Made by a program: the position numbers and the translations under genes
Shown: positions 6,610 to 58,028 of the stretch, piece by piece
How positions within the stretch are numbered: the stretch's first letter is position 1
Layout: every line of letters starts with the position of its first letter
The notes under the pieces: model-generated
What the model was told of the DNA's origin: nothing
The model's input: only the letters and a program-made list of their open reading frames with translations
The model's database searches: none
Source of the DNA: Dictyostelium discoideum
Taxonomy: Eukaryota
NCBI GenBank assembly: GCA_000004695.1
Contig: CM000153.2
Span: forward strand, 1,696,001-1,760,000
Direction of reading: 5' to 3'
Length of the DNA stretch: 64,000 bases

Positions 6610-8463
6610 TTACTTTTTATTTGTTGTTGTTGTTGTCAAAGGTGATTTGGATGTCATATTAACAGATGATGATGATGATGAAGTTGTTGGAGAAGATTTT
6701 GGTTTTGATGGTGTTATTAAAATAGGTGATTCTTTTTTTGATGGTGTTGGTTTATTTACTGTCGGATTTGAATTTATTGTTGTTGTTGTTAAATTAACAG
6801 AGGACATTGTTTTTGATAAACTCGGAATTTTACCACCACCACCACTACTACTATTATTACCAACACTAGTTGGTGATAAATTTAAAGAGGATGAAGCCTT
6901 TGATAATGTTGGTATTTTTGGTGTTGTTGGAGAAGTAGTAAATGAAGATGATGGTGATGATGATGAAGAAGAGGGTTTTTTAGTTAATGGTGAGGGTTTC
7001 TTTGAAAGTGGTGTTGTTGGTCTTTGTGGTGTAGTTGGTGTTGTTGGTCTTATATTTTGTTGGGTTTGTTGAGGTTGTTCTTGAGGTTGTTGCTGTACAT
7101 TTATTGTTGAAGTTGTTGGTGATGAAGTTGGTGATGAAGTTGTTGTTGTTGTTGGTGATGAAGTTGTTGATGAATATGAAACCATTGGTGAATCTGATAT
7201 ATTTTCAGGATCTTTTTTTGTTACAAGTTTTAAATGAAGTAAATGAAAATCAGGTCTATCCTGTTCAGTATTCATTAATTCTAAATAAGAATTACCAAAA
7301 TATAGAAATGATTTTTGATTTTGATTTTCCCATTCAGCCAATTCCTTTACTAAATCAGTGGTAAGTATTGGATATTCTCTAGCTATAGTTTTACGAAATT
7401 TAGCTTCTTCCAATAATCTAATTGAACTACCTTTAAATCTACTAGGATCACTTGCACTAGTTTCAAAGTTTTTCATCTCACTCTTTATCCATTCCCTTCT
7501 TTTAACTTTATTTAAAATTGATTTCATTGAATCTAATAATTCATTTAATAATTTAATTTCTTTATCAATAATTTCTAATGTTTCAATATTATAATAATTT
7601 ATTTCATTTGAATAATCAATTTCATCATTATTATTATTATTATCATTATTATTATTATTATTTAATAATAAATCTTTTAAATTTCTTTGATTTAATGGTA
7701 TACATAATTGATCCCATAATGATTGTAATGATTTAAATTTTGATTGAAATGAATCTTTAAATTTTAATTTCTTTAAATTTGTTAAATGATTTGATTCTTG
7801 AGTTAATAGATTTATTAAGGATAATGATGGGATTGAAGGTGGTGGTAATTTATTTCTTTTTAATTTAAAGTTTAATCTAGTTTCATCATTTAATGGAATT
7901 GATAATTGTTGATAATCACGTTCAATTGAATTAATTTGATTATTAATTTGTTTTAATCTTTTCTCTTTCATTAGTTCAAATGTTTTAATTATTCCTTCAA
8001 TTTTATATAATATTTGAATTAATGATTTCATTTCTAATTTATTTTTTGAACAATCATCACCATCATCATCATCATTTAGTTTTAATTTATTTAAAATTTG
8101 ATTTAATTCATTATTTTCATTATTTTCAATAGTTGATTCTAATTCTAATTGATTTTTTAAATTTAATGCAATTGATTTTGAATCATTAATTTTATCCATA
8201 ATCGAGTTACGTATATCTTGTAATTTTTTAATTTCATTTTCAATTTCATCAATTCTTTTATTTGAAACTGATATACCAATTTCAATAAATGATGATGAAA
8301 CATATTCTGTATCTTTATTATCACTTAGATCAATTCCTAATTCTTTATATAATTTCATTAATTCTGAATAAACTTCTTTTAATTTAATTTCATTTTTATT
8401 ATATATCTTTTATTATTATATATACATTAGTAATTGATTAATAATAATTATTATAATTATTAC

Positions 8464-16490: not shown

Positions 16491-18131
16491 TTAACTTTCA
16501 AAATAAACTTGAAGTAAACTATCTTCAGCAGGTACACCAACTCTTAATACCATAGTACCTAACATACTTCTACAACCTTGACCAGTATGAACATAAAGAT
16601 AATTATTACCATTTCTCCAAAGTGAATAATCTGGAATACCAGTGATACCAACCATTGTTAATGAGAGTAAATCTGAACGAATACCAATTTGACCACCATG
16701 AGTATGACCAGAGAAAGTGATACAACCATAATCGGTTGGAATGAATTTAAAAGAACCAGGATCATGAAGTAATGCAATTCTTGGTATACCTTGGATGGGT
16801 GGATAAGCAGAACAAACCTCATGGATATGTTGTTGTCTTGCTTTATTTCTATAGTCAAAACCAGTGATTTGAATTTTGCCAATACGAGTTTCAACCAAAA
16901 CACTTTGATCAATTAAAAGTGGACATTGAATCGTCTTTAAAGCTCTCTCTAAAATTTCCATACAACCTTCCTCTAAATCATGATTTCCAACACAAGCGAA
17001 AACCTTTCCATGTGGTAGTTTCTTTAATGGTGCCAATGCTATCTCCAAGGTATTCTCTGGATTGAATGATTCGGATGTAAAGAAATCACCAGTTAATAGT
17101 ACTAAATCTGGATTTAATTTAACGGTACTCTCACAAATCTCTGTTAAACGTTCACATGACATCATTGGACCTAAATGTGGATCTGCGATTTGAATGATCG
17201 AGAGTGGTTGTTTAAAGTCTACAATTTGCTCATTGTGATCTGATAATGGTTGGATTTTAACACGTTTTAATGATTTCTTTGGTGTTATCAATTGTTCATT
17301 CTCCATCTCTTCATTTGATGATGTTTTCAAATAGATGTCTTTTACTTGCCATTTATTTGGTGGACGTGTTATAAGTGTTTGATATAACCCGATTATACTT
17401 AACACCAATGGTATTAACATTATAAACATACCAACCAATGATGGAATGAATGGTACAACCAAATAGAATGGTATCGATAGTATCATTGTTGTGAAGAATA
17501 CCGATGATGGATACGACACTAAATATAAATAAAGTTTTGGACGCATTTTACATTTTGATAATACTAAATGTTGAATGTAAACAGTTGAGTGTAAATAAAT
17601 CAATATGAGCAATGGTAGCCACATAATGCCTCGGTATCTATACCCACTGACAGCATTGTTCTCTTGATCCACCACAAAGAATGGTCTTAAAATGTACATT
17701 GAAAAAAGTATGTTGTAAAGTGAATAGAATGAAAATGATACTGCCATTAATGCAGTGATACCTTTTGATCTTATAAATGGGGAGAATCCCTTCTTCCTAT
17801 AGAAATATATTAAAATTGGTACCAATATCAACCATGATGGTAATCCAAATATATAAAATGGTAATGTTAATCTTCCTTTAACTCTTGCTGCCAATACAAA
17901 TGAAATCGTTGGTAATGATATTGCCAATAAAACAATTACTATCTTTGCAAATTTACTAACTGGATGTCCAATTGATTTCTCTGTTTCTTTATTTAAATTA
18001 CATTTTGCTTCAATATATTTATATGGTTGATTTGATTGATCTGTTGTTGTTGTTGTTGTTGTTGTCGATGGTTCATCCCATTCTTTCATTAAAGACATTT
18101 GTTGTTGTTGTTTTTCTTTTCTATTTTTCAT
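16491..18131 (-). CDS. multi-pass transmembrane protein with C-terminal calcineurin-like metallophosphoesterase domain (TMPPE-like), 546 aa
   Basis: Single exon. The N-terminal half has 6-8 hydrophobic helices. The C-terminal half carries metallophosphoesterase motifs: IADPHLG, GDFF, GNHD, GHTHGG. Confidence 0.75.
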   Translation of the reverse strand: MKNRKEKQQQQMSLMKEWDEPSTTTTTTTTDQSNQPYKYIEAKCNLNKETEKSIGHPVSKFAKIVIVLLAISLPTISFVLAARVKGRLTLPFYIFGLPSWLILVPILIYFYRKKGFSPFIRSKGITALMAVSFSFYSLYNILFSMYILRPFFVVDQENNAVSGYRYRGIMWLPLLILIYLHSTVYIQHLVLSKCKMRPKLYLYLVSYPSSVFFTTMILSIPFYLVVPFIPSLVGMFIMLIPLVLSIIGLYQTLITRPPNKWQVKDIYLKTSSNEEMENEQLITPKKSLKRVKIQPLSDHNEQIVDFKQPLSIIQIADPHLGPMMSCERLTEICESTVKLNPDLVLLTGDFFTSESFNPENTLEIALAPLKKLPHGKVFACVGNHDLEEGCMEILERALKTIQCPLLIDQSVLVETRIGKIQITGFDYRNKARQQHIHEVCSAYPPIQGIPRIALLHDPGSFKFIPTDYGCITFSGHTHGGQIGIRSDLLSLTMVGITGIPDYSLWRNGNNYLYVHTGQGCRSMLGTMVLRVGVPAEDSLLQVYFES

Positions 18132-21118: not shown

Positions 21119-21892
21119 ATGATAATATATTTAAGAACTGATGGATATTATAGTGGCAAAGAAAAGATATCAATAGTAAATGAAAATGTTAGATCAAAAT
21201 TAATTAGATGTAGAAGTTATGTAGTTGACAAATATTCAGATAAACAATTATTATTTTTAAATGGTAAAGTATTGAATGTGCATAAATCATTCTCAGAGAA
21301 TAACATTAAAGAAGGTGATGTAATAGAATGTTCAATGTTTCCATTGGCAACAGTTATCATTCATTATTTAGAACGTAAAATCATTGAACAATGTAAACAA
21401 ATGAAGACATCTGAACCCCAATCTTATTTCAATATGGGTACACTTAGGAAAAATTTAAGAATGGTTAGTGATAATTTCGATAAAATTAAATCTTATCAAT
21501 CTGATGGTTTAAATGGTTTAAAATTATTATTTAAAGATAATGGTAGTATGTATTATTCAATATTTTCATTTTACCTCTATTAATTATCCTACCCCCATAC
21601 TAATAATACCAATAAACAAAAAAAAAAAAAAAAAGTTTCACACAATGAAATTCAAGAGATTTACTTTAATTATGAAACTTTTGATATGCCTCAAAAAGAT
21701 CCATTGGATCATTTTATATCTAGAATTTATAATAAAACCACATCAACAACATCAATACCAATAGCCTTACCACTTACTAAAAAACCAATTATTAATAATA
21801 ATAATGATGATAGTGGGATAATTGTAAATTTGGACGATAATAATAGTGATGATGAGAGAACACCATCCTCACAGTCATTTTCGACACCTAAA

Positions 21893-21962
<70 letters not shown>

Positions 21963-22687
21963 CATATTCAACACCACAAAAACAACAAGCTCAACCTCAG
22001 CAACAATCATATTCAACACCACAAAAACAACAAACTCAAGTTCAACAACAATCATATTCAACACCACAAAAGCAACAAACTCCTCAACAGCAACAAACTC
22101 AAGTTCAACAACAATCATATTCAATACCACAAAAACAACAAGCTCAAGTTCAACAACAATCATATTCAACGCCACAGAAGCAACAAACTCCTCAACAGCA
22201 ACAAGCTCAAGTCCAACAACAATCATATTCAACGCCACAAAAGCAACCAACTCCTCAAGTTCAACAACAATCATATTCATCAACACCACAAAAGAATACA
22301 AGTTTTGAATTAGATAGTTATTTTGATGTTGATAATGAACTAGAAGTCTTTTCACAACCACAAACACCCTCTCAACAATCTGATAAATCGAAAACAGTTA
22401 TTTCACCTATATCAACACCTAAAAGCAAAATCTCTTTAAATGATTTCTCACTCATTAGTCCAATTTTGAAACACAGTACCAATAAAAGTGACTTGAAAAA
22501 GAACAATAGTTTTGATAAAGACATTGACTTTTTTGAAAATAATTTTAATATAAATGTAAATAGTTTAAATAATAGTCTTGGTAGTAGTCAAAATAGTGCA
22601 ACTATTTCGAATAGCAGTAGTCAAAATAGTATCACTGTCTCCCCAAATAACAGTTCAAATTGTATCAATAACGATAATAATAATAAC

Positions 22688-22718
<31 letters not shown>

Positions 22719-22960
22719 TCAGTAATAATTCTCTTGGGAAGAGACCCCTTTCACTATTCACTTCGACAACATCTAATAAAAAACAAACCACAACAACAAC
22801 TACCACTACTACAACCACCCCTACATCTACAACACCTACCAATAAAAAAAATATAACAGATTATTTTTTAGATGATTCCGAAGATGAAGATATTTTTGTA
22901 TCTTCATTATCTTCACAATCTTCCATGTCAAATAAATCAAATTCATCATTAAATAATTCA

Positions 22961-23025
<65 letters not shown>

Positions 23026-25226
23026 TAATTGTAAAGGAGGAAATTCAGATTTAGATTTTTTAGATGATTTCGATTTCGGTTATGAAGATGAAGAGTTCAT
23101 GTTTGATGAATATTCAATTAAAAAAAGTAGAAATGAACTCTCTTCTTCTTCTTCGCAACCATTTATAAATACATGTATAACTACTTCTACAAAAATAACA
23201 TCAACAAATTCAAATAAATTATTATCAAAATCAGAATCAAGTTTAGATACTTTACTTTTCAAAAAACCAAAAACACCTCAAAAAAAACAGAAACACATTT
23301 CTTCACCTTTGCTTCACTCATCTCAACCAATCCCTTTAACAATGGATTCATCACTTTCAAAAGATATTAAAAATTCATTGATACCAATAAAAACTCAACC
23401 AATAACAACTACCACTTCCACTACCACTACTAATAGTAATACAAATACTACCAATAATAATGATAATAGTATAATAAAAATAGAAAAACCATTTAAAAGA
23501 TTAACAAATGGATCAATACCACCAATATTAATATTAAATGCACCACTACCAAATAGATTTAAATTTAAAAGTAATTTATTAGATTTTAAACCAACATTTC
23601 AATATCCACCATTTTCATTATTGATTTCATTATCAGAGCTAAAGACATCAAAAGGTATAAAGACAGTATCAGTAAAAGAGATTATGGAAGGAGGTCAAAA
23701 CTATACCACTCTATGCGATACTCGTAATCCTGAATTTTCAATTGAATTAAAAACACCAAAATTTGCAATTACCAATACATTGATGGTTAATGATTGTTTA
23801 GAATTGGAGGAAGGTAAAGAAGATTCATTCTATATCACTGATTTAGGTTATCGTTATGCTAGAATATTTCAAGATTATCATAATGATTATTTAGAATTTT
23901 GTAAAGTAAACTCTTTAAGAATTAATGTTGCTCAAAATGATGTAACCATTGTAATTGATTCATCAGAGAAATTATCAAATGAATTTAAAAGAAACTTTAA
24001 TGAAATGGGTATAAATTCAATTAATACTTTTCAATTACCATCTGCTGATTTTATTTTCTTAAAAAAGAATTCAAATAATAATAATAATATCAATAATAAT
24101 AAGAATCATTCATTCTTTAATAATAATAATATTTATGATATTGATAGTGGTGGTAATGCATTAATGTTTCCATATATAATTGAAAGAAAAACTTGGAAAG
24201 ATTTAAGTGCATCAGAAAAGGATGGTCGTAATGCTAGACAAATGACAAAGATGAAAGCTTATGGTAAATTAAAAGGTAGATTCTATTTGGTTGAAGGTGA
24301 ACCTTCAAATTATAATTCAGAATATCAAGTTACAACAATTGAAGAATTAAAAAAGAGATTAGATCTTTTAACTACTGCTGATAATTTTACAATCATTAAA
24401 ACAAATTCACCCTATGATACAACTCGTCAAATTGCTATAATTGCAAAAATGTTATCAACTGATCCAATTTTATCAAATCCTTCAAATTTATTATTATATA
24501 ATGATTTTAAAGATGCTGTAACTAAATCAAATTATGAAAAATATCATCAAAATAATAATATTAATATTAATAATATCAACAATAATATCAATAATAATAA
24601 TCCAATTATGGAATTAGCATTAACACAAATGGCTGATCAAACTGATTTATCAGTTATAGAACATTCAAAATCTAAATCTGAAAAAATATGGTTTCAAATG
24701 ACAATTGATCAATTTAAAGAGTATATTCTATCATCAGATTATAGAGATCAAATTAGAAATACAATGAATAATAATGAATATAGTTCAAAAAGAAAGATTC
24801 TTATTATAAATGAATTTAATAAATTTAAAGTACAACAACAGAAATCTCATAATCAATTATTTCAAGATTACCTTTATCAAAGATATAATAATAGAAGTGT
24901 AAATAATATTTCTAAAAGTTTTAGAAATGAAAAAAGTTTATTACTCTCTGATTATTTAGATAATGATATAATTAATCATTATCTATTACAATTGATTCTA
25001 CATTTTAATCTTCAAATATTTATTCAATTTCATGATAGTGAACGTGGAAATGTTGAATCATTTTCATCATTTTCAAAATCAATTGAAAAAGCAATTCAAC
25101 TAAATCAAGATTATCAACACAATCTAAAATTTAAAACTATATTTGCCAAAACAATTCCAGTTTTTAGATCGATAAAACAACAAAGATTAGAAGATTCAAT
25201 TAATTATAGAAATGAATTAGAAAATT

Positions 25227-25299
<73 letters not shown>

Positions 25300-25366
25300 T
25301 AATAATAATAATAATAAAAATCAATTTAGTTATATTGATGATATTATTGATTTAGATGATGATTAA
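21119..25366 (+). CDS. mus81: Mus81-type ERCC4/XPF-family endonuclease with a long low-complexity N-terminal extension; about 1384 aa; 2 exons bridging an in-frame stop
   Basis: Proposed exons 21119..21542 and 21636..25366. The 93-nt intron GTAGTA..aaaag removes the single in-frame TAA at 21581 that separates ORF 21119..21583 from ORF 21686..25366 (same frame). Nuclease core: VTIVIDSSEK .. ADFIFL .. GGNALMFPYIIERKTWKDLSASEKDGRNARQMTKMKAYGKLKGRFYLVEGE, close to Mus81 [39 protein letters not shown]. The N-terminal part has a possible beta-grasp-like segment, polyQ, and about 8 tandem copies of a roughly 13-aa QQSYSTPQKQQ(A/T)QVQ unit (21963..22300). Confidence 0.7.
21895..22300 (+). repeat. coding (CAA)n polyQ followed by about 8 tandem repeats of roughly 39 nt (QQSYSTPQKQQxQVQ)
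   Basis: Periodic tcatattcaacaccacaaaaacaacaa..ctcaagttcaacaacaa units. Overlapping ORFs 21846..22313 (+) and 21888..22367 (-) are alternative-frame readings of this repeat. Confidence 0.85.
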
Positions 25367-32696: not shown

Positions 32697-33626
32697 ATGT
32701 CACCAGACGAAATGGTTGGTATTTTTTGTTTAATTGGTGGAGCTGCATTATGTGTATTTGGAAGTAAATATCAAGAGTGTACCCTTAGTTTCTTTGGATC
32801 TGGAGTTGGTGCATATTTATTTTATTTGGTTGGAAGTAAGATAGAGTTTGGATTTACGACACAAATTATATTATCAATTCTTGTATCATTAATTTTCTCA
32901 TTTATCTGTATGAAATTGAAGAGATTATCTGTATTGTTAATTGCAATTATTCATTCTCTATGTATATCCAATTTAATGGCACCAGGATTAGGAGAACATT
33001 GGAGTCAATTTGTAATGTATGCCTGTTTAATCATATTGCCATCATTGTTCTTGTACGTTCCAGACATTGGTATTGTTGTGTCAAGTTCATTCTTTGGTTC
33101 ATGGATCTTTGTGGCTGGCATTGAGCAATTCATTGGCACCGGTTTCCCAAATCCAATGGTCGTACTATTCAATAGAGATTGGGATAGACTTGTTGTCATC
33201 GAAGAAAGTGCATTCTTAGAGTGTCTATTGGTTTGTTCAATTATGCTTACTTCATTATTAATCCAAATCAAGACTTTGGTACCATCCTCTAATGAAGTTC
33301 AAATGTTGGATATCGTTTCTTTAATTCAAGAGAAAGTAATTGAAAAAGTTGTCACTGATAAAACCATTACTCCATTTGACCTCGAAACCGATTTACGTGA
33401 AGTTTTAGTCGATGATGAAGTAGTTTCCAAAGTTCACAACTTAATCTTTGGTGTGGGTCTTCCAGTTATCAAATCAGTTGAGCTAATAGCTGGCGATGAT
33501 GACAATAATGATATGGTCACTCCAAATGGTGATGATATTTTACCACCAACTTCTGACATTAAAACCTATTATTTTGAAAAATTAATTGGTAAATCAGAAT
33601 CTTCAAAACCATTAATTATAAATTAA
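32697..33626 (+). CDS. multi-pass membrane protein (about 7 TM helices) with acidic C-terminal tail, 309 aa
   Basis: Single exon with ATG at 32697. The hydrophobic helices run through the first roughly 200 aa. No confident family assignment. Confidence 0.6.
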   Translation: MSPDEMVGIFCLIGGAALCVFGSKYQECTLSFFGSGVGAYLFYLVGSKIEFGFTTQIILSILVSLIFSFICMKLKRLSVLLIAIIHSLCISNLMAPGLGEHWSQFVMYACLIILPSLFLYVPDIGIVVSSSFFGSWIFVAGIEQFIGTGFPNPMVVLFNRDWDRLVVIEESAFLECLLVCSIMLTSLLIQIKTLVPSSNEVQMLDIVSLIQEKVIEKVVTDKTITPFDLETDLREVLVDDEVVSKVHNLIFGVGLPVIKSVELIAGDDDNNDMVTPNGDDILPPTSDIKTYYFEKLIGKSESSKPLIIN

Positions 33627-35487: not shown

Positions 35488-37684
35488 ATGAGGAATAATA
35501 ATAGTTTAATCTCAATAATAATTTTTATATTATTTTCAATTTTCTTATCAACAAACGAAATTAATGCAGATGATAATTGTTCAACATTAAAACAGGCAAT
35601 TTTATTTTATAAAGTAAATAATCTTTTTTTTTTATTACTAATTAATAAATAAATAAATAAATAATAAATAAATAAATAAATAATAATTTTTTTTTTTTTT
35701 TTTAAAATAGGCACAACGTGCTGGAAGATTACCAGATAAAGATATATCATGGAGAGGTGATTCAGTTTTAACAGATGCAAGTCCAGGATCATCATTTGAT
35801 TCAAATGGAGATGGTGATCTTTCAAAGGGTTATTTTGATGCCGGTGATGGTGTAAAATTTGGTTTACCAATGAGTTGGACAATGACAATGTTAGGATGGA
35901 ATTTCATTGAATATTCATCAAATATTGAATCATGCGGTTTAACCGATTTATATTTAAATGTTTTAAAATGGGGTACAGATTATATATTGGCATCACATTT
36001 AAGTGATAATGTTTTGGTAGCTCAAGTTGGTGATGGAAATGTTGACCATAGTGTATGGCAGCCACCAGAATTCATTAATTATGTACGTCCAGTGTTTTTA
36101 ATTAATTCAAGTTATCCAGGAACTGAATTAGCAATGGAAGCAGCATCAGCATTGGCAGCAGCATCAATTGCATTCAAATCAAGTAATCCATCATATGCAT
36201 CCACTTGTTTATCACATGCCAAAGCATTACATAACTTTGGTAACACATATCAAGGTTCATACTCAGTTTCAGTTCCACAGGCATCTGCATTCTATAATTC
36301 ATATTCTGGCTATACCGATGAATTAGTATGGGGTAGCGTTTGGTTATACAAGGCAACTGGTGACTCTAGTTATTTAACATTGGCTGAGAATTACTATACC
36401 ACTAATAATGTTGGTTATGCAGGTACTTCAAATTCATTCGATTGGGATCAAACTGCCACCGGCTCATCTCTATTACTTTATAAATTGACTGGAAAAGAAT
36501 TCTATAAACAAATGGTGGACCAAACACTAAGCTATTGGTCAAAAGGTGGCGGTATAACTTATACTCCAGGTGGTTTAGCTTGGATTAGAGAGTGGGGTCC
36601 ATGTAGATACGCAATGTCAATGGCATTCCTTGCAACAGTGTATGGTACTGATTCATCATTACAATTTGCCCAAAATCAATTAAGTTATGTACTTGGTGAT
36701 AAAACTGGTCAATCATTTGTTGTTGGTTTAGGTTCAAATCATCCAATTAATCCACATCATAGAGCTGCCCATCATTCAACTACTAATGATATTAATAATC
36801 CTGTAAATAATTTATATATGTTATATGGTGCATTAGTTGGTGGTCCTGGAAGTGATGATTCTTATGTTGATGATCGTTCAGATTATACAAAGAATGAGGT
36901 AGCACTTGATTATAATGCTGGTTTCGTTGGTACTTTATCTTATTTTGCAAAAGGTATTTATTTTTATTTTATTTTATTTTATTTTATTTTAAAAAAAAAG
37001 TTTTTATATTAACTAACTAAAGGTTCTTCATCCTCAACTACTACCACTTCAACTACAACGTCAAATCCAACATCTACAACATCAACTACAACTTCAAATC
37101 CAACTCCTACCACATCAACTACAACTTCAAATCCAACTTCCACATCAACCACCACTTCAAATCCAACCTCTACTTCAACCACAACTTCAAATCCAACTAC
37201 AACTACAACCACAACTTCAAATCCAACCTCAACCTCAACTACAACTTCAAATCCAACTACAACTACAACCACAACTTCAAATCCAACTACAATTACAACT
37301 TCAACAAACCCAACTACAACATCCACTCCTGCCACAACAACAACATCTACTTCAACCACAACTTCATCAGGAGATGGTACCACAACAAGTGAGACAACAA
37401 CAGGAGATTTGGTGACATCCGGAGATTCTAACGTAACACCAACTGTTCAACCAACATCTAGTTCATCAACTTCTTCAGGAACTTCAACTGGAACTTCAAC
37501 TGGAACTTCAACTGGAACTTCAACTGGAGCCCCAACTGGAACTTCAACTGGAAATAGCCAAAATCCTCCTGGAGTCGAAAAAGATGGTAGTTCAAGTGAC
37601 GCACTCAGTTTGGGTGATATCATCCCACTTTCAATCATTACATTATTCATTTTATCATCAATTCATCTCTTATTAAACAATTAA
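35488..37684 (+). CDS. secreted glycoside hydrolase family 9 endoglucanase (cellulase) with Thr/Ser-rich repeat linker and hydrophobic C-terminus (celA-like); 3 exons, about 676 aa
   Basis: Exons: 35488..35613 (signal peptide, donor AAA|GTAAAT), 35711..36953, 37023..37684. The 69-nt second intron removes an in-frame TAA and keeps the frame. GH9 motifs: DLSKGYFDAGDGVKFGLPM, WQPPE, DELVWGSVWLYKATGD, HHRAAHHS, ALDYNAGFVGTL. Exon 3 encodes about 8 TTTSNPTS repeats, then (TSTG)n, then IIPLSIITLFILSSIHLLLNN, a possible GPI signal. It may correspond to Dictyostelium celA; that is not verified. Confidence 0.85.
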
Positions 37685-46611: not shown

Positions 46612-47929
46612 CAATGAATATGTAATTACATAATGTTGATGATGATAATGATGATAATGATGATAATGATGATAATGATGATAATGATGATAATGATGAT
46701 AATGATGATAACGATGATGAATTTTGAAAGGAAATGAACTTGGAAATAGATTTTAATATTATTTTTTTATTTTTTTATTTATTTATTTTTTAATTTTTTT
46801 TTTATTATTATTTTGTGTTAGGACTAGCCAAAATATAATGATAATTGTAACATCATTAACGACAATAGCAAAACAAAGATTTTCAATGATTTCAAGGATT
46901 GTACCAATACTGTGTTCATGTCCGAATTTAATACCAGTTTTTCCAATAGTACAACAAGAAAGCGTTAGACATTCATTAAAAGTTTCATTATTATCAATAA
47001 TTCGTATAAAGAGAAAAGAACTATTATCACCATTCATTTCAGATTTAATTCAAGCATGTTCAAAAATTGATTCAAAAGATGCTGCTGATGAAGCTGCAAG
47101 ATGGTTTTATCATGATGAACCTGATAAAAAAGTAAATATAAATATAATTAATTATTAATTAAACTAAAATATACCCCTCCCCTTATTCAAATAACTAATT
47201 TTCCCAAAAATAAATTTCAAAAAAAGAAACGACATAACGAAGGTGGTCATGAATCTCATAAAAAAAAATCAAAGGTTGAACATGTTTATGGTGTTAATGA
47301 TAATGTAATAGAAAATAATAAAAACATAAAAAATAATCATAATAACGATAGTAATAATAATAATAACAACAACAATAATTTTAGTAACAATTTTAATAAT
47401 TTAAATAATAATTTTAATACCGGTTTTAATAATAATAATAATAATAACAATAATAATTTTAATAACAATAATTTTAATGAAATTAATAAGAATAATAATA
47501 ATATGTACAGTTCAAACTTTATTGAGAAACCAGGTTTAATTATTGATGATGAAACTCAAGCAAAGATTTTGTAAGTTTGCAATAAATGTATATAAAAAAA
47601 AAAAAAAAGGTAATTGGATGCATAAGTGTATTAATTTATATTTATATATATACATATTTATTTAAATAATTTAGAGCATCTATTGAACATCTTAGTCCAG
47701 AATTTGTAAGAGAACTTGTTATTGAAAATATGAGTCATGTTCCTTTGATTAGTTTATTACAAGGAATACCGTTTAATCAACAAACTAAAGAGTTATTTAA
47801 ATTTGTAGATTCTTATCAAAATAAACAGATTAAACCAATTCATTTCATAAGTCCATTAACACAACCAAATCCATTACAATCTATAAACAATACAAATTTA
47901 CCTCAATATCCTTCACCACCTTTAAAACC

Positions 47930-47984
<55 letters not shown>

Positions 47985-49783
47985 CCTCAACAAAATTCAC
48001 CACAAAATCAACCAACACCTTTCATATTATCACCACCAGTAAACAAATCTTTTAAACCACCACCATCATCCCAACAACCATCACCACCAATACTTCAACA
48101 ACAATCACCACCACAACAACCACCACAACAACTACCACCACAAATACCTCTACAACCACCACAACAATCAACACCACCAATTGTAGAAACTCAAATTAAA
48201 GTTAAAAAGGAAGAAGATAGCGATGACGAAGATGAAGAAAAACAACTACAAGAAGAAGAAGATGAAGATTTATTCTCAAAAGAAGCAATGGAAGAAGAAG
48301 AAGAAGATGATGAAGTTGATAAAATAATTAAAAAAGAAAATGAACAACAACAATTAAAAGAGAAAATGGAAAATTCAAATTCTATTAGTTCTTCATTATT
48401 TGGTGGTGGTGGTGGTGATAATAGTAACGGTAAGAGTGATGTTATACCATCATTTACACCAAGACCAACATTTAAAGCACCACCACTTTCAAAAGAGAAA
48501 CAAAAACATGTTGGGGAGAGTGCATTGGTTAGAATTAAAATATCAGAACCTGGTGTCATGGTTTGCGGTAAACATGATCTTTGGACTTCATTATTATCTC
48601 GTATACTTTCAATTAGACCCGATCAAGAAGAATTACAAGATCAATTTATAAAATTTATCACTCAAGATTTTAAAAATCATAGAGAATTAGCGCTTCAATG
48701 GTTATTCAATGAATTATATATTGCAAAACAAATTACACCAACAACAACTAAAAATCTTAATCCTGAATTAGAAAATAATAATAATAATAATAATAATGAA
48801 AATAATGAAAATAATGATAATTCAACCACTGAAGCATCAACAACAACAAATAAAAATAAAAAAGAACCAAATATGAAAAGATATTCAACTTTATTAAAAA
48901 AAATGATAAAACAAATGAGAAGTCATTTCCCAATTAAAGATACAACTATCGGATCATTTATATTAGATTTACCATTTATAACCAATCAATTATTACATTC
49001 TATAAATTGTAAGATTGTTGCTGAATCTCAAAGTTTAATTTATACAAGTGCAACTTGGGATATTAATAAAGTATTTTCAAATGAACATAATCAAATACCA
49101 ATTGCAAATGTTACAGCAAGTATAAAAGATCATCAAATTGATGAAAATGGTAATCAAATACCATTGACAGATGATGATATGGACGCAGCAGCAGCATCAT
49201 CATCACCATTACCTATTGATCCAAAGATATTACAAGATAAAGAGAATGAATGGTTACCAATTGGGTTGGGTATATTGAGAGATTTAATCATTTGGAGACC
49301 AAATGTACGTGAATATTGTATAAATAGTCTTTTAAAATTTTCAATTTCAAATGATGATTCAGTTCGTTCACCAACAATTAATTTAATTGCAAATCAAATC
49401 TATTCAAAACAATCTGCTACAGAACCAATTCAATTATTTGCAAAGGAACAAATCATTCATTTAATTGCAATCAAAGATATCGAAGATGAAATGGAAATTC
49501 AAAAATCAAAAGATGCTGCCATCATCTATAGTGAATTAATGAATCAAGATAATAATATCGATGATAATGCTATTAAAATTGAAGAAACTCAATCAATTGA
49601 AGATAAAAAAAAACATGAAGAATTTGAAAAAAATAAACAAAATCAAAAAGAAGAACAAGAACAACCAATGAAACTTGATAATCTAAATGATGATTCAAAT
49701 GTAGATATTAATACCAACACCACCAACACCACCACCACTACCCCCACAACAAATACAACCACAACAACATCAACATCGACATC

Positions 49784-49814
<31 letters not shown>

Positions 49815-50822
49815 GAATTAGAACAATCAATAGTACCAAAAGTTTTAACTAAAACTAGAGTAAAAGAAATTAAAAAGTTTATAGAAACAAGAGTTTCACT
49901 TTATTTTGCATTGATTATTAAAAATCATCAATTATTAACTGACCTTTTACAATTATATCCAAAATATGATGAAAATATTCAAGAGGTTGTTAAAAGACTA
50001 ACGACATGTGTAATTAAACATATTGGACAAAGTAGTGCTTCATTGTTACAAGTGATTTCAATTTGTCCAACTGGATCAGAGGAATTAACACTTGAAATTT
50101 TGAATGCATTGGTTTTAAATGAAAAACCATCCAGTGAATTGGTTGAATCTGTAAAAACCTTACTATTGACCAATGGCGATATTAGATTCCTTTTACCAGT
50201 GCTAACGGGTTTGAAGAAAGAAGAAGTTATCTCTAGACTACCATCATTCCTATCAATGCCAAATAAAACCGATACCAATCAATTCATTAGTGTTTTAGCA
50301 TCACCAGGCTCACCATTATCCGCTTCGGAATTATTAGTTCAAATTCATTTGACACCTGATTCCTTAACTATGAAATCAATGGAAGCTATCGATTTTTGTT
50401 TAGATATGGAAGATATTTTCAAACAAGAGATTGTCGCTGCCACCATAAATCAATTGATGGCTCAGGCTCAGCTACCAAAGTTATTCATGAGAACTATCTT
50501 AAAGACCCTTCAAAAATATCCACGTCTAAAGATTTTCATCGTTGAGATTTTAGGTCGTTTAGTTGCTAGACAAGTTTGGAAGGATAAAACTTTATGGGAT
50601 GGTTTCATTCGTTGTACAAAATTGGCAAAACCAGAATCACTAGAGGTTATACTTCAATTACCACCAACTCAATTCGAAGATGCAATCAATCATGAAAAAC
50701 ATCGTGATCTCAAATCAATCATTATCAAACATTTACAATCAAGTAAAGAAAATGAAATTAGATATCCAAAACAAAATTTAAAAACTTTGAATTGGGAAAA
50801 ACATTCAACCACTTCAAAATAA
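45477..50822 (+). CDS. symplekin homolog (mRNA 3'-end processing scaffold); 7 exons, about 1493 aa
   Basis: Exons: 45477..45711, 45848..45962, 46070..46253, 46343..46488, 46822..47131, 47227..47570, 47675..50822; phases 1/2/0/2/0/2, total 4482 nt. N-terminal HEAT region ELIFHKEPILLDEFYNSFVEFALDRSQAIKKQIIPYIESICKK (human [43 protein letters not shown]). Also LNSDNKAIVKRVILCVTNL ; FSLDRVPFDHSII ; LTTIAKQRFSMISRIVPILCSCPNLIPVFPIVQQESVRHSLKVSLLSII. The conserved C-terminal domain gives ..FLLPVLTGLKKEEVISRLPSFL.. . Intron 4 carries (CAAT)n 46571..46617 and (GATGATAAT)n 46636..46720. The exon 1/2 junction is uncertain to +/- a few nt. Confidence 0.8.
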
Positions 50823-52372: not shown

Positions 52373-52910
52373 AAAAAAAATAAAAAAAAAAAAAAAAAAA
52401 AAAAAGAGATAAATAAAAAGAGAATTTAATAAAATTTAAATTAAATTAATAAATTAAAAAATTAAAAAAAGAAAAAAAATATAAAATAAAATTGTTTACT
52501 TACTTTGGACAACTTCTGGCCCAATGTCCCTCTTCATTACACATGAAACATTTGCCACTGCTGCTATCTGGTCTTTTAATACCTTTACTACTATTACTTA
52601 ATTCGACAATAATATTTCTACCAAGGAAATTTTGTTTATGTTCACTATTAATTGCATCATCTGCTGAAGCTTTATCAAAGTATTCCTATTTTTTTTTTTT
52701 TTTTTTTTTTTTTTCAATAAAAAAATATATATTTTAGTTTGTATAATTTTTTTTTTAAAAAAAAAAAAAAAAAAAAAATTGTATACTTACAATAAAACAA
52801 AAACCTTTTCTAAGTTCTAGTCTATCTATTTTTCCAAACTTTGAGAATCTACCATATAAATCATCTTCTCTTGCGTCATGATTCAATCTTCCGATATATA
52901 TTTTTGACAT
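51466..52910 (-). CDS. SR-family splicing factor (RRM + CCHC zinc knuckle + RD/RS domain; SRSF7/9G8-like); 3 exons, 365 aa
   Basis: Exons (minus strand): 52910..52791 (MSKIYIGRLNHDAREDDLYGRFSKFGKIDRLELRKGFCFI, RNP2+RNP1, donor ATT|GTAAGT), 52685..52504 (EYFDKASADDAI..GKCFMCNEEGHWARSCPK), 52261..51466 (RS/RD-repeat domain (RDRS)n, then (NG)n and poly-N, ending ..NSLNGL*). The ORF-track entry 51651..52262 is the same DNA in the wrong frame (acidic DQEIE reading). Confidence 0.8.
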
Positions 52911-53434: not shown

Positions 53435-53511
53435 GGAAAATTCCAACAAAATATCTTTTTTTTTTTTTTTTTTTTTTATTTTCAAAAATAAAAAATCAAA
53501 AAGTCAAAAGC

Positions 53512-53553
<42 letters not shown>

Positions 53554-53569
53554 GATTTCGTGATTGATT

Positions 53570-55523
53570 ATGTCAAATCATGATAATAATAATAATACCA
53601 CCTCAGTGAATAACAATGGTAATAGTATAAAAACAATTAAAGAGAATATTCAAGCATGTATGGAGATATATTATCATTTAAAGAGTACATTGGGACCTTT
53701 TGGTAGAGATAAATTAATAGTTGACAAGAATAATAATTATCTATCAACCAATGACGGAGCAACAATATTACAATATTTAAAAATTACACACCCAGCACCA
53801 AGATTATTAATTGGTATTGCAAAATCACAAGATGAAACAGTTGGTGATGGTACCACAAGTGTAGTTTTATTAACATGTATTTTATTACAAAATGCTTTAA
53901 AATTTATATTATTATCAATTCATCCAATTATATTTATCAAGGTACATACCTATATCTATATTTAATATCAATTTTTATTTTTTATTTTATTGTATTAATT
54001 ATAATTTAATTTTTTTTTTAATTTTTTTCTTAATTTTTTAGGGTTATCAAATTTCATTAGATTTTTGTTTAAATGTAATTAATGAAATTAAAATATCACC
54101 AATAAAAGATAATAAAAATAATGAAGAGATTTTAAAAAAAGAGGAAATATTTGAAAATGAAGAATTTTTAAAACATTTATATTCAGTTGCATCTACATCA
54201 ATATCATCTAAAATTTTAGCAAGATATAGTGATCATTTTTCAAAGATTGGCGTTGAAGCAGTTAAAAGATTAAAATTCAATGAAACACAAGATTTAATTA
54301 GAGTTATTGGTATCACTGGAAATTCAATGTTAGAATCACAATTAATAGATGGAATATTATTAGAAATTGATAGAAATCAATTAACCACTTTTAAAATTGA
54401 TCAACAACAACAACAAAGCAACAACAACAACAACAACAATAAAGAAAATGAAAAAATTAAATCAATTTTAAAGAATCCATCAATTATTATTGGTAAATTA
54501 CAATTGAATAAAACTTCTTCAAATCAATTCCAAGGTTTAAATTTATCAATTCCACATTATCATGATAATAATAATAAAAATAATAATAATAATTATAATG
54601 ATCAAAATAAAGAACAAAGAGATAAAATTGAACTATTAATAAAAAAAGGAATAAACATTGTAATAAGTGATACGGAAATATCACCATGGATTGAATTAAT
54701 TTTTAAAGAAAATAATATATTATACTTTAATATTCCAGATAGTAGAGAATTGGAAATTATATCACATTGTATTAATTGTTCATTAATTTATGATCTTTCG
54801 TCATTGTCATTATTAGAAGATGAAAAAGAAAAACAATCATCAATGATATCAAAACCAAATTCAATTGAAATTTTACCAATTGGCGATAAATTCTTTTTAA
54901 AAATTTCATTAAATGGTGATGATGATGATGATGATGATGATAATAATAATAATAATAATAAACAATTATTATCATCAAATGGAGCTACAATGTTATTAAG
55001 ATCACCAACTGATACAATGTTACAAGAATGTATTAGATCATTTAAAGATATGTTAAACATTTTATCAGCAACAGTTAGAAATCCATATTTAATTGGTGGT
55101 GGTGGTTGTACCTATATTGAATTATCAAAAAGATTAAGAAATAAAGCAAATGAGTTTATAACTGATGAAAAATTATTAATTTCAATTAATTGTTTTGCTG
55201 ATTCCTTGGAAATGATACCAATGATTTTAATTCAAAATGCAGGATATGATAGTTTAGATTTATTAGGTAAATTGAAATTAGTTCATAAATCAACATCAAC
55301 CACAAATACAACTACAAATCCTTTAAATAATATTTGGAAAGGTGTAAATTTAAATGATGGTACTATAGTGGATATGATATCAGATTTAAATGTAAAAGAA
55401 CCATCTTTCCTTCTTTCAAATATTTTAACTTTATCAAGTAGAGCTGCTCAAATGATTTTAAGAATAAATAATAATATTTTCATTGAACCAAGATCACAAT
55501 TTAAAATTCCAAATCAATTATAA
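53570..55523 (+). CDS. divergent group II chaperonin-like protein (TCP-1/cpn60 superfamily; not a canonical CCT subunit); 2 exons, about 617 aa
   Basis: Exons: 53570..53941 and 54042..55523 (donor AAG|GTACAT, acceptor ttttag). The true start is ATG at 53570; the track ORF starts at an in-frame TTG. The equatorial ATP-site block is GPFGRDKLIV..NDGATILQYL..HPAPRLLIGIAKSQDETVGDGTTSVVLL and the C-terminal block is IGGGGCTYIELSKRL. The remainder is weakly conserved with poly-N/poly-D insertions. Confidence 0.6.
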
Positions 55524-55733: not shown

Positions 55734-58028
55734 TTATGAAGAAGCATTAATTGATTCTTTTGGTTGATTATTAATATTTTTTGGTTCTTCAGTTTTATTA
55801 TTAAAAGGACGTGGACCTAAGACAGCTTCAACTTCTTCAAAGTGAATAACTTCTTTTTCAAGTAATAAATTAGCTACAGAAATTAAACCTTCTCTATGTT
55901 CTTGTAAGACTTGAGTGGTACGATCATAAGCGGATTTAAGTAATTTTCTAACCTCTTCATCCATGACTTCAGCAGTTTCTTCACTGTAAGGTTTGGTTAA
56001 ATCAGAACCATCTTGACCTTTTTGATAGGATAATGGACCTATTTTTTCATTCATACCATAGATTGAGACTTGAGAGTAAGCCATTTTAGTGATTTTCTCA
56101 AGATCATCTTGAGCACCAGTTGTAATGGTACCAAAGGTTAATTGTTCAGCTACACGACCACCTAAAGCCATACACATCATATCAAAGATTTGTTCTTGAT
56201 TTTGAAGGAATTGCTCCTTTGGAAGATATTGAGCATAACCTAGAGCGGCAACACCTCTTGGTACAATTGAAACTTTCAATAGTGGATGACAATGTTTGAG
56301 GAACCAACTTACGACGGCATGACCAGCTTCATGATATGCAACTGTTCTCTTTTCAGTTGGAGATAAAACTTTATTCTTTTTCTCTAAACCACCAATAACA
56401 CGATCGACGGCAGCATCGAAGTGTTCCAAAGTGATGATTTCAGCATGTCTACGAGCGGCAATGAGGGCGGCTTCATTACAAACGTTGGCAATATCGGCAC
56501 CACTGAAACCTGGAGTTAATTTTGATAATCTTTCAGCGTAGTTTATTGATTTATCCAAAAGTAATGCGGCTAAATGTACTCTAAAGATCTCTTCTCTACT
56601 CTTTAGATCTGGATTATCGATTGTGATTTGTCTGTCGAATCTGCCAGGTCTAAGTAATGCCTTGTCCAAGATATCAGGTCTATTGGTTGCAGCGAGTACA
56701 ACAACATTCTTCAATGGTTTAAAACCATCCATTTCAACCAACAATTGATTTAATGTATTCTCACGTTCATCATTCGAACCAGAGAAACCACCTTTACCTC
56801 TTGCTCTACCAACTGCATCAATTTCATCGATGAATACAATACATGGTGCATTCTTTCTAGCCTGTTCAAATAGATCTCTAACACGTGATGGACCAACACC
56901 AACAAACATCTCTACGAAATCTGAACCACTTGTAGAATAGAATGGTACATTTGCTTCACCAGCGGTTGCTTTAGCAATCAAAGTTTTACCAGTACCTGGT
57001 GGACCAACTAAAATAGCACCTCTTGGTATCTTTGCACCAATGTCATGGAATTTCTTTGGATTCTTTAAAAAGTTTACAAATTCTTCAATCTCAACTTTAG
57101 CTTCACCAAGACCTGCTACATCGCTAAATTTAACAGTTGATGTTGATTTTTCAAATTTATTTGCTGTACTTTTACCTTGTGAAAACATTTTATTTGATTT
57201 AATTGATCTAAATGTTCTAAAAATTAAATAACCAATAATTGCATATGGTATAACTTGAATCAATGCTACTCTTGGGTCGAAATATTCATGATATGAAATT
57301 GGTATAAATTGTGATTTTGGAATACCTAAATCAGATTGAACTTTTTCAACTTGTTCTTCAAATACTTTCTTATCACCAATTTTGAAAGAATTGGTTATGC
57401 TATAAGTTACACCATCATCATTTAATTTATAAGTATTTGCATAACCATCAGTGACAACGATTTTAGATGGTTTATTCTCACTTAATTCATCTAAAAATTC
57501 ACTAAATTTAATTTCGTTTCCTTCTTCTGTATTTGGTCTAAAAAGTGATAATATAACACCAATTGATATAACTGTAATTAAATATTTCTTAAATTCTGGT
57601 GAATTCATTTGTTGCATAAAACTTTCATCTTTATTATCTTTATTATCTTTATTATCTTTATTATCTTTATTATCTTTATTATCTTTATTATTATTGTTGC
57701 CTTTGTTGTTGTTGTTGTCGTTACCAGTTTCTTTTTCTTTTTTTTCGAAATTACCCCATCCTTCTGATTTAAAAATTGAATCTTTTATTGACTTTATACT
57801 GAATGAAGGTGATGTTATATATTCATTATTAAAAAATCTATTTAAAATACTTGTTTGATTTTCATTTTCATTTTGATTTTTAAATAGATTATTATTACTT
57901 GAAAAGTTACATTTAATATTATTACTATATTGTTGTTTTGAAAATAATGAAGTTTGTGTTATTGTAATTGGTTTTTTTATTTTTTCATATGATTTTATAA
58001 GGTTTCTATTACGAATAATAGATGCCAT
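55734..58028 (-). CDS. mitochondrial inner-membrane m-AAA protease (FtsH/AFG3L2/paraplegin/Yta10-12 family), 764 aa
   Basis: Single exon. N-terminal targeting/low-complexity region, TM segment, then an AAA module ([34 protein letters not shown]) and an M41 peptidase with HEAGHAVV. Confidence 0.9.

What the first reader, a model, noticed from the sequence alone, without database searches (positions are those of the whole stretch)
53570..55523. Highly divergent chaperonin-like gene next to canonical housekeeping genes
The product keeps only the two most conserved TCP-1/cpn60 signature blocks (GPxGxDK..NDGATIL..DETVGDGTTSVV and a GGGG C-terminal block). The apical and intermediate domains are barely recognisable and are interrupted by poly-N/poly-D tracts. 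Canonical CCT subunits are among the most conserved eukaryotic proteins, so this is not one of the eight. In animals such degenerate chaperonin-like genes are the BBS6/10/12 class, which a non-ciliated amoeba should not need. It may be a lineage-specific co-chaperone or an inactive paralog.
Basis: inference. Interest (0 to 1): 0.5.

Follow-up and report, generated by a model that had tools for sequence, protein, structure and literature searches.

The report
Orphan ATPase-competent chaperonin paralogue in Dictyostelium
This is a real, selectively maintained Dictyostelium gene (DDB_G0284247) for a full-length CCT/thermosome-type chaperonin subunit that is none of the eight standard CCT subunits and not of the BBS type, keeps an intact ATPase site, and belongs to a small, apparently undescribed group of extra chaperonin genes found in a few protists.

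Summary
The interval holds a two-exon gene (53570-53941, 54042-55523, + strand) encoding the 617-aa D. discoideum protein DDB_G0284247/Q54PX2, annotated "hypothetical". Pfam Cpn60_TCP1 matches end to end (E=6.6e-92), and an AlphaFold model superposes on whole CCT/thermosome subunits (TM 0.85-0.88). The poly-N/Q/D tracts are D. discoideum-lineage loop insertions. It is not CCT1-8: the best subunit model, eta, scores 274 bits against a cutoff of 669. It is not MKKS/BBS6-like: 20-42 bits on an MKKS profile, and every ATP-binding/hydrolysis motif is canonical, whereas MKKS has lost them. Orthologues occur throughout Dictyostelia with conserved intron, synteny and dN/dS of 0.18-0.25. They form a clade (NJ bootstrap 65-96%) with orphan chaperonins from Ceratiomyxa, Acrasis and unidentified protists, sharing a Glu-to-Tyr change in GGGAxE. 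Where that clade attaches is unresolved. Most likely it is an active, specialised cytosolic group II chaperonin subunit. Its partners and clients are unknown, and no paper in the searched library mentions the gene.

The parts
53570..53941 (+). Exon 1 (aa 1-124): N-terminal equatorial domain with LGPFGRDK (53690-53713), NDGATIL (53750-53770) and GDGTTS (53843-53860)
   Evidence: Translation; 100% match to DDB_G0284247; motifs invariant in orthologues
53942..54041 (+). Phase-0 intron, 100 nt, GT..AG, between IHPIIFIK and GYQISLDF
   Evidence: an intron at the same position in D. firmibasis (74 nt) and D. purpureum (75 nt)
54042..55523 (+). Exon 2 (aa 125-617 plus stop): rest of the equatorial domain, and the intermediate and apical domains
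   Evidence: AF2 and Foldseek
54204..54212 (+). SSK (aa 179-181), which includes the nucleotide-sensing-loop lysine K181
   Evidence: Invariant in dictyostelids and in all canonical groups
55035..55049 (+). RSFKD (aa 456-460); D460 is the homologue of the catalytic Asp of group II chaperonins
   Evidence: Aligned to RSLHD of human CCT eta; conserved in all canonical groups, lost in MKKS
55095..55121 (+). GGGGCTYIE (aa 476-484): GGG nucleotide loop with the clade signature Tyr482 in place of the near-invariant Glu of GGGAxE
54399..54443 (+). Poly-Q/N tract (aa 244-258), a lineage-specific insertion in the apical domain
   Evidence: absent in other genera; low pLDDT
54564..54593 (+). Poly-N tract (aa 299-308) at the tip of the predicted lid
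   Evidence: the lid tip also has low confidence in T. lacteum
54918..54965 (+). Poly-D/N tract (aa 417-432), a lineage-specific loop insertion
55290..55319 (+). S/T/N-rich tract (aa 541-550), a lineage-specific loop insertion in the C-terminal equatorial domain

Best explanation
DDB_G0284247 encodes a cytosolic, full-length group II (CCT/thermosome-type) chaperonin subunit that is an extra paralogue, additional to CCT1-8. Shown: it has the three-domain fold with a built-in lid helix, it retains every canonical nucleotide-binding and hydrolysis motif, it is conserved with intron and synteny across Dictyostelia under purifying selection, and it groups with a handful of orphan chaperonins from Ceratiomyxa, Acrasis kona and unidentified protists, not with any CCT subunit or with MKKS. 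Inferred: it binds and hydrolyses ATP in the equatorial pocket (Asp460 as catalytic residue) and couples this to lid and apical-domain movement as other group II subunits do. The strongly conserved equatorial domain and C-terminal helix and strand suggest that it works inside an oligomer, either a ring of its own kind or an association with CCT. The fast-evolving apical domain would serve a narrow, lineage-specific client set. Clients and partners are unknown.
For: Identity and fold: Pfam PF00118 E=6.6e-92, full length. AF2 pLDDT 81.6 and 91.5. Foldseek TM 0.85-0.88 to CCT beta, eta, alpha, gamma and thermosomes. Long helix after the lid tip. Not CCT1-8: best NCBIfam model is eta at 274 bits against a cutoff of 669, and the eta margin over the next model is only 6-34 bits in this clade, whereas truly divergent eta proteins keep 91-110 bits. 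ATPase site: motifs invariant in 11 orthologues and canonical in a side-by-side table. Selection: dN/dS 0.18-0.25 against 0.10-0.14 for the neighbouring FtsH-like gene; conserved intron; conserved synteny. Orphan clade: NJ bootstrap 94/65 and 96%; dictyostelids + Ceratiomyxa 79-82%; hhalign dictyostelid profile scores 806 against the orphan profile, 657 against eta and 624 against thermosome; five signature columns, including Glu to Tyr in GGGAxE. No N-terminal hydrophobic or presequence-like segment and no C-terminal sorting motif is visible in the sequence (by inspection).
Against: No expression, protein or interaction data were available, and no paper in the library mentions the gene. The trees are distance-based only, and the clade's attachment is unresolved (sister = beta 29%, MKKS+second orphan 28%, eta 10%), so long-branch attraction could contribute to the orphan clade. 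The orphan-clade HMM scores canonical CCTs as high as it scores the dictyostelids. The near-invariant Glu next to the GGG nucleotide loop is replaced by Tyr, with unknown effect on ATPase activity. The apical domain is weakly conserved (0.31 identity), and the gene evolves about 1.8 times faster at non-synonymous sites than its neighbour. Oligomeric state could not be tested.
Confidence: 0.6

Rival explanations
1. It is simply a fast-evolving duplicate of one canonical subunit (CCT eta or CCT beta) that arose within Eumycetozoa, and its grouping with Acrasis and the unidentified protist orphans is long-branch attraction.
For: Eta is the top NCBIfam model in every dictyostelid orthologue and the best canonical hhalign partner (657). 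PDB phmmer ranks eta and beta first. The NJ tree puts the orphan clade next to beta in 29% of replicates. UniRef labels two orthologues 'TCP-1-eta'.
Against: The eta margin over the next-best model is only 6-34 bits, whereas genuinely divergent eta proteins keep 91-110 bits. Dictyostelids + eta get 0% bootstrap. Only 1-2 signature columns are shared with eta or beta, against 5 with eight diverse orphans. hhalign prefers the orphan profile by about 150.
Confidence: 0.22
2. It is a relic or repurposed member of the BBS6/10/12 chaperonin-like class that assists assembly of another complex together with CCT.
For: A different Dictyostelium orphan, DDB_G0268902, was tentatively placed next to BBS12 (PMC10074162). 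The long-branch pair MKKS+second orphan is sister to the orphan clade in 28% of NJ replicates.
Against: MKKS HMM scores are 20-42 bits. hhalign gives 72, the lowest of all partners, and MKKS itself prefers the thermosome, eta and orphan profiles to the dictyostelid one. Dictyostelids + MKKS get 0% bootstrap. Columns shared with MKKS are at chance level. ATP motifs are intact here but degenerate in MKKS (PMC2846930). BBS genes derive from the CCT8 lineage (PMC2846930), and theta is among the worst models for this protein (180 bits). Dictyostelium has no cilia or BBSome (established knowledge). BBS10 and BBS12 sequences could not be obtained, so those two were not tested directly.
Confidence: 0.05
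3. It is a catalytically dead scaffold (pseudo-chaperonin) retained for a structural role.
For: Glu to Tyr next to the GGG loop; relaxed constraint compared with the neighbouring gene; weakly conserved apical domain.
Against: All residues known to bind nucleotide or catalyse hydrolysis are invariant over the whole of Dictyostelia and in the wider clade. That pattern is not expected if ATP turnover were dispensable.
Confidence: 0.08
4. It was acquired by lateral transfer of an archaeal (for example Asgard) thermosome gene.
For: Thermosome models score almost as high as eta and are the top models for most non-dictyostelid clade members. Asgard thermosomes are among the best profile hits.
Against: No thermosome cutoff is met. 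The clade never nests inside archaeal sequences in the NJ trees. Zero signature columns are shared with thermosomes. The gene has a conserved spliceosomal intron and typical Dictyostelium composition. The high Asgard scores of P0121 and P0124 come from tandem-fused double proteins.
Confidence: 0.05

Closest known systems
CCT eta (CCT7) and CCT beta (CCT2) subunits of eukaryotic TRiC/CCT
   Same: Same Pfam family, the same three-domain fold with built-in lid, identical nucleotide motifs, and similar length once the inserts are removed.
   Different: Scores are less than half of the equivalog cutoffs. There is no tree affinity to eta (0-2%) and only weak affinity to beta (29%). The Glu of GGGAxE is replaced by Tyr. 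The apical domain is poorly conserved. It is an additional gene: a dictyostelid that has the orphan (T. lacteum, P0008) also has a canonical CCT beta (P0396).
Archaeal thermosome subunits
   Same: Comparable HMM and fold similarity. Like them, it could in principle form homo-oligomeric rings.
   Different: It is a eukaryotic gene with an intron. It is below thermosome cutoffs, does not nest in archaeal clades, and shares no signatures with them.
MKKS/BBS6 (and BBS10, BBS12) chaperonin-like proteins
   Same: Extra, divergent group II chaperonin paralogues outside the CCT1-8 set.
   Different: MKKS has lost NDGATIL, GDGTT and the catalytic Asp, while this protein keeps all of them. Mutual profile scores are the lowest of all pairs. 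MKKS's best CCT model is theta, whereas here theta is among the worst. The host has no cilia.
DDB_G0268902, the 'BBS12-like' orphan of D. discoideum (PMC10074162), and its likely D. purpureum counterpart DICPUDRAFT_88934 (P0227)
   Same: A second dictyostelid chaperonin-like gene that fits no CCT family.
   Different: It is a different locus and a different lineage. P0227 groups 100% with P0184 and only 1-2% with this clade, and it keeps the GGGxxE Glu. The equation of P0227 with DDB_G0268902 is an inference and was not tested.

Membership tests
Group II chaperonin superfamily (Pfam Cpn60_TCP1) | Full-length match to PF00118 above the gathering threshold | tested here: met
   309 bits against a cutoff of 34.3, profile positions 5-484 of 490
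Group II chaperonin superfamily (Pfam Cpn60_TCP1) | Equatorial, intermediate and apical domain fold with a built-in helical protrusion (lid) | tested here: met
   Predicted only: AF2 models and Foldseek TM 0.85-0.88 to closed CCT/thermosome chains. A 22-24-residue helix follows a low-confidence lid tip.
Group II chaperonin superfamily (Pfam Cpn60_TCP1) | Nucleotide-binding and hydrolysis motifs (GPxGxDK, NDGATIL, GDGTT, SSK Lys, catalytic Asp, GGG) | tested here: met
   Invariant in 11 orthologues; canonical in the motif table
Group II chaperonin superfamily (Pfam Cpn60_TCP1) | Assembly into double-ring oligomers | not testable with these tools
   No multimer prediction or experimental data were available
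CCT1-8 subunits of TRiC | Score above the subunit-specific equivalog cutoff (TIGR02340-02347) | tested here: not met
   Best is eta at 274.5 against 669.2; all eight are below cutoff, also in five orthologues; the control eta P0017 scores 893.5
CCT1-8 subunits of TRiC | Phylogenetic placement inside one subunit clade | tested here: not met
   NJ bootstraps: 0% with eta, and not inside beta, alpha, delta or epsilon. Gamma, zeta and theta were assessed only by HMM. Distance methods only.
CCT1-8 subunits of TRiC | Fixed position in the hetero-octameric ring | not testable with these tools
   Needs AP-MS or cryo-EM
MKKS/BBS6 | Specific sequence affinity to MKKS orthologues | tested here: not met
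   20-42 bits on the MKKS HMM; hhalign score 72; 0% bootstrap
MKKS/BBS6 | Origin in the CCT8 (theta) lineage (PMC2846930) | tested here: not met
   The theta model scores 180 bits, among the lowest, whereas MKKS's best CCT model is theta. No theta sequences were in the tree, so this is weaker than a phylogeny.
MKKS/BBS6 | Degenerate ATP-hydrolysis motifs (characteristic of the family, PMC2846930) | tested here: not met
   Motifs are intact here and lost in MKKS
BBS10 / BBS12 | Sequence or phylogenetic affinity to BBS10 or BBS12 | not tested
   No BBS10 or BBS12 sequences could be retrieved because the searches were exhausted. The literature flags a different Dictyostelium gene as BBS12-like.
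Archaeal thermosome | Score above the thermosome model cutoffs and nesting among archaeal sequences | tested here: not met
   241 against 671 and 237 against 450; outside archaeal clades

The most novel reading that the evidence does not exclude
DDB_G0284247 is the model-organism representative of a previously undescribed ninth lineage of ATPase-competent group II chaperonin subunits in eukaryotes. The lineage occurs in Dictyostelia, Ceratiomyxa, Acrasis kona and several unidentified protists, is marked by Glu to Tyr in GGGAxE, is old (predating the split of Amoebozoa and Discoba, or spread by eukaryote-to-eukaryote transfer), and builds its own chaperonin particle or a variant TRiC dedicated to specific clients.
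Probability: 0.2. Interest if true: 0.7.

Novelty: new variant of a known kind. Interest (0 to 1): 0.45.

Why it matters
The eight-subunit composition of CCT/TRiC is treated as universal and fixed in eukaryotes. The known extra paralogues (BBS6/10/12, CCT8L, CCT6B) are animal-centred, and the BBS ones have degenerate ATP sites. An additional, catalytically intact chaperonin subunit maintained across all Dictyostelia, with relatives in distant protists, would show that the family is more open-ended than assumed. It also sits in a genetically tractable organism, where knock-out, tagging and pull-down could show directly whether a eukaryote can run a second group II chaperonin system or a variant TRiC. 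If it is only a fast-evolving CCT duplicate, it is of modest, mainly annotation-level interest.

Tried and rejected
(1) The AlphaFold DB fold search (afdb50) was unavailable, so named structural neighbours such as BBS proteins could not be ranked. (2) The search with the mixed orphan-clade profile was swamped by CCT beta and thermosomes. It added only P0285, P0286 and P0022, and it did not even list the dictyostelids. (3) The orphan-clade HMM is not discriminating, because canonical CCTs score 426-512 on it, as high as the dictyostelids, so I did not use it as evidence. (4) P0121 and P0124, which looked like intermediate-scoring relatives, are tandem-fused double thermosomes whose scores are doubled. 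They were rejected as relatives. (5) P0263 (Gefionella) sat next to the clade in the first tree but joins it in only 1-6% of bootstraps, so it was excluded. All analyses used the database sequences it retrieved. These are mammals only, so no non-animal BBS6 candidates were tested. (7) I could not obtain gamma, zeta or theta CCT sequences, or BBS10/12, for the tree. (8) An attempt to map D460 onto the Mm-cpn D386A entry through a PDB search gave only a table, so the mapping rests on the alignment to CCT eta and the motif table. (9) The first hhalign run failed on output parsing and was repeated. (10) Literature searches by gene and protein identifiers found nothing for this gene, and searches for a described 'ninth' CCT family or an Acrasis thermosome found nothing relevant. 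(11) I checked whether P0122 might be viral or archaeal. Its neighbour resembles CAF-1 p150 by inspection, so it is a compact eukaryotic genome.

Full report
WHAT IS THERE. The window is AT-rich (GC mostly 12-39% per kb). The interval 53570-55523 contains a + strand gene with two exons (53570-53941 and 54042-55523) separated by a 100-nt GT..AG intron. The 617-aa product is identical to Dictyostelium discoideum AX4 DDB_G0284247 (Q54PX2, XP_638673.1), annotated only as "hypothetical/uncharacterized protein". No paper in the searchable library mentions the gene under any identifier I tried.

CHECK OF THE OBSERVATION. So are the low-complexity tracts, at aa 244-258, 299-308, 417-432 and 541-550. 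The claim that only two blocks survive is wrong, however. Pfam Cpn60_TCP1 matches in one stretch over profile positions 5-484 of 490 (E=6.6e-92). An AlphaFold2 model (pLDDT 81.6, pTM 0.80) aligns over about 590 columns with closed-state CCT beta, eta, alpha, gamma and archaeal thermosome chains at TM 0.85-0.88. The low-confidence segments of the model coincide with the low-complexity tracts. Those tracts are absent from other dictyostelid genera, so they are the usual D. discoideum-lineage simple-sequence expansions in loops. The insert-free T. lacteum orthologue models at pLDDT 91.5 and pTM 0.88. Only its lid tip (236-242) is uncertain, and that is followed by a 24-residue helix where the group II helical protrusion lies. 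Among divergent dictyostelids the apical domain is 31% identical on average, against 50-54% for the intermediate domain and 60-62% for the equatorial domain.

NOT ONE OF THE EIGHT CCT SUBUNITS. NCBIfam has one equivalog model per CCT subunit. The protein's best score is eta at 274.5 bits against a cutoff of 669.2. The other seven models and the thermosome models are also far below their cutoffs, and five orthologues behave the same way. A genuine eta control scores 893.5. Eta ranks first throughout the dictyostelid clade, but only 6-34 bits above the next model. Clearly divergent eta proteins (P0221, P0167) still prefer eta by 91-110 bits. T. lacteum, which has the orphan (P0008), also has a canonical CCT beta (P0396). 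A published survey states that the CCT families are easily identified in Dictyostelium (PMC10074162).

A REAL, MAINTAINED GENE WITH AN INTACT ATPASE SITE. Orthologues exist in Dictyostelium spp., D. purpureum, Polysphondylium violaceum, Tieghemostelium, Heterostelium and Acytostelium, at 42-92% BLASTP identity. The phase-0 intron lies at the same codon boundary in D. discoideum, D. firmibasis and D. purpureum. The gene is followed by the same convergent FtsH-type AAA protease and a protein kinase in those species. dN/dS is 0.18 (D. firmibasis) and 0.25 (D. purpureum), against 0.10 and 0.14 for the neighbouring FtsH-like gene. That is purifying selection, but somewhat relaxed. All residues that bind nucleotide or catalyse hydrolysis in group II chaperonins are invariant in the 11 orthologues and identical to the consensus of every canonical family. 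These are GPxGxDK, NDGATIL, GDGTT, the SSK lysine, the Asp of RSxxD (D460, aligned to the RSLHD Asp of human CCT eta) and GGG. That the RSxxD Asp is the catalytic residue (Mm-cpn D386, GroEL D398) is established knowledge, not something tested here. This argues against an inactive paralogue.

NOT BBS6-LIKE. Only the returned database sequences were used. Dictyostelid proteins score 20-42 bits on an MKKS HMM, against 239-316 on the eta, beta and thermosome HMMs. hhalign gives 72 against MKKS, compared with 543-806 for beta, thermosome, eta and the orphan clade. Dictyostelids + MKKS has 0% bootstrap support. The few columns shared with MKKS are at the level single canonical sequences reach by chance. 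MKKS has SQSSALL for NDGATIL, SDCGLF for GDGTTS and no catalytic Asp, as the literature describes (PMC2846930). MKKS's best CCT model is theta, consistent with its published CCT8 origin, while theta is among the worst models for this protein. BBS10 and BBS12 could not be tested. A different D. discoideum orphan, DDB_G0268902, has been tentatively called BBS12-like (PMC10074162). A second D. purpureum orphan (P0227, DICPUDRAFT_88934) is probably its counterpart, which is an inference, and it does not group with the present clade (1-2%).

A SMALL ORPHAN CLADE. An exhaustive profile search of 1.84 billion representatives gave hits scoring between the dictyostelids (887 bits) and the general CCT/thermosome background (about 270 bits and below). 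After discarding tandem-fused Asgard thermosomes whose scores are doubled, the remaining ones are P0122 (367 bits) and P0123 (344 bits). P0122 is an intronless gene on a compact 33%-GC eukaryotic contig. P0123 is from Ceratiomyxa fruticulosa. In NJ trees these group with the dictyostelids, together with P0014 (Acrasis kona, annotated "thermosome subunit alpha"), P0125, P0285, P0286, P0022 and P0131. Support is 100% for the dictyostelids, 79-82% for dictyostelids + Ceratiomyxa, and 94% (scoredist), 65% (gamma distance) and 96% (a second scoredist run) for the whole clade. All these proteins are below every NCBIfam cutoff. Three independent lines agree. The dictyostelid HMM scores P0122, P0286, P0123 and P0014 (332-375) above all canonical sequences (325 or less). 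hhalign ranks the orphan profile first for the dictyostelid profile (806, against 657 for eta and 624 for thermosome). Five signature columns are shared by the dictyostelids and at least 70% of eight diverse orphans but are rare (6% or less) in 52 canonical sequences. These include replacement of the Glu of GGGAxE (E in 49 of 52) by Tyr (Y482).

Two caveats apply. The methods are distance-based. The clade's attachment is unresolved: its sister is CCT beta in 29% of replicates, the long-branch pair MKKS+second orphan in 28%, eta in 10% and others in the rest. Its origin therefore remains open. It could be an ancient ninth paralogue with many losses, a fast-evolving eta or beta duplicate, or a gene spread by eukaryote-to-eukaryote transfer.

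MECHANISM. Shown: the fold, the motifs, the selection and the clade. Inferred: the protein binds and hydrolyses ATP in the equatorial pocket and drives lid and apical movements as other group II subunits do. The highest conservation lies in the equatorial domain and in the almost invariant C-terminal segment EPSFLLSNILTLSSRAAQMILRINNNI..IEPR. In group II chaperonins that region forms ring contacts (established knowledge), which suggests the protein functions inside an oligomer, either its own ring or an association with CCT. The rapidly evolving apical domain suggests a narrow or shifting client set. No targeting signal is apparent from reading the sequence, so a cytosolic location is likely. 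I put about 0.9 on the identity statement (an extra, maintained group II chaperonin paralogue that is neither CCT1-8 nor MKKS-like) and about 0.5 on the active-ATPase-in-an-oligomer mechanism, giving 0.6 overall.

VERDICT. It is a new variant of a known kind, of moderate interest because it sits in a tractable model organism and has not been discussed in the literature I could search.

Noticed in passing
P0121 (Freyarchaeota, 1057 aa), P0283 (Jordarchaeum, 1059 aa), P0124 (JGI metagenome, 1047 aa); not in the window: Asgard-archaeal 'thermosome' proteins of about 1,050 aa. P0121 and P0124 each show two Cpn60_TCP1 stretches, so they are tandem-fused double chaperonin subunits, and P0283 is inferred to be one from its length. 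Their doubled scores first made them look like close relatives.
   Followed up: partly
P0227 = DICPUDRAFT_88934 (D. purpureum) and P0184 (unknown organism); literature gene DDB_G0268902: Dictyostelids carry a second orphan chaperonin-like gene, unrelated to the one studied here (100% bootstrap with P0184, 1-2% with this clade). It is probably the family of the published 'BBS12-like' DDB_G0268902. It keeps GDGTT and the catalytic Asp.
   Followed up: partly
P0263 (Gefionella okellyi, malawimonad): Another orphan group II chaperonin (best model thermosome at 351 bits, below cutoff). It sat beside the clade in the first tree but joins it in only 1-6% of bootstraps. It may relate to the BBS6-like malawimonad sequences mentioned in PMC10074162.
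   Followed up: partly
window 55734-58028 (-): Convergent neighbour: an FtsH/AFG3-type m-AAA protease (FtsH_ext, AAA, AAA_lid_3, Peptidase_M41). It is syntenic with the chaperonin-like gene in D. firmibasis and D. purpureum. dN/dS is 0.10-0.14.
   Followed up: yes
window 53513-53552: An uninterrupted run of 40 A immediately upstream of the start codon, preceded by a long T run at about 53456-53477. This is typical Dictyostelium intergenic sequence.
   Followed up: no
window 6610-8358(-), 16491-18131(-), 21686-25366(+), 32697-33626(+), 35870-37012(+), 47730-50822(+), 52755-52910(-): Other large ORFs by Pfam: MAP65/ASE1, calcineurin-like phosphoesterase, ERCC4 nuclease, TM7S3-like membrane protein, glycosyl hydrolase family 9 (cellulase) and symplekin. 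A short RRM-like exon lies just upstream of the gene.
   Followed up: no
L001 1-762 (+) next to P0122 (L001 2352-3890): The closest non-dictyostelid relative, P0122, lies on a very compact 33%-GC contig. The genes there abut or overlap, the chaperonin gene has no intron, and a CAF-1 p150-like gene sits nearby. The organism is unidentified (SRA run SRR32607925).
   Followed up: partly
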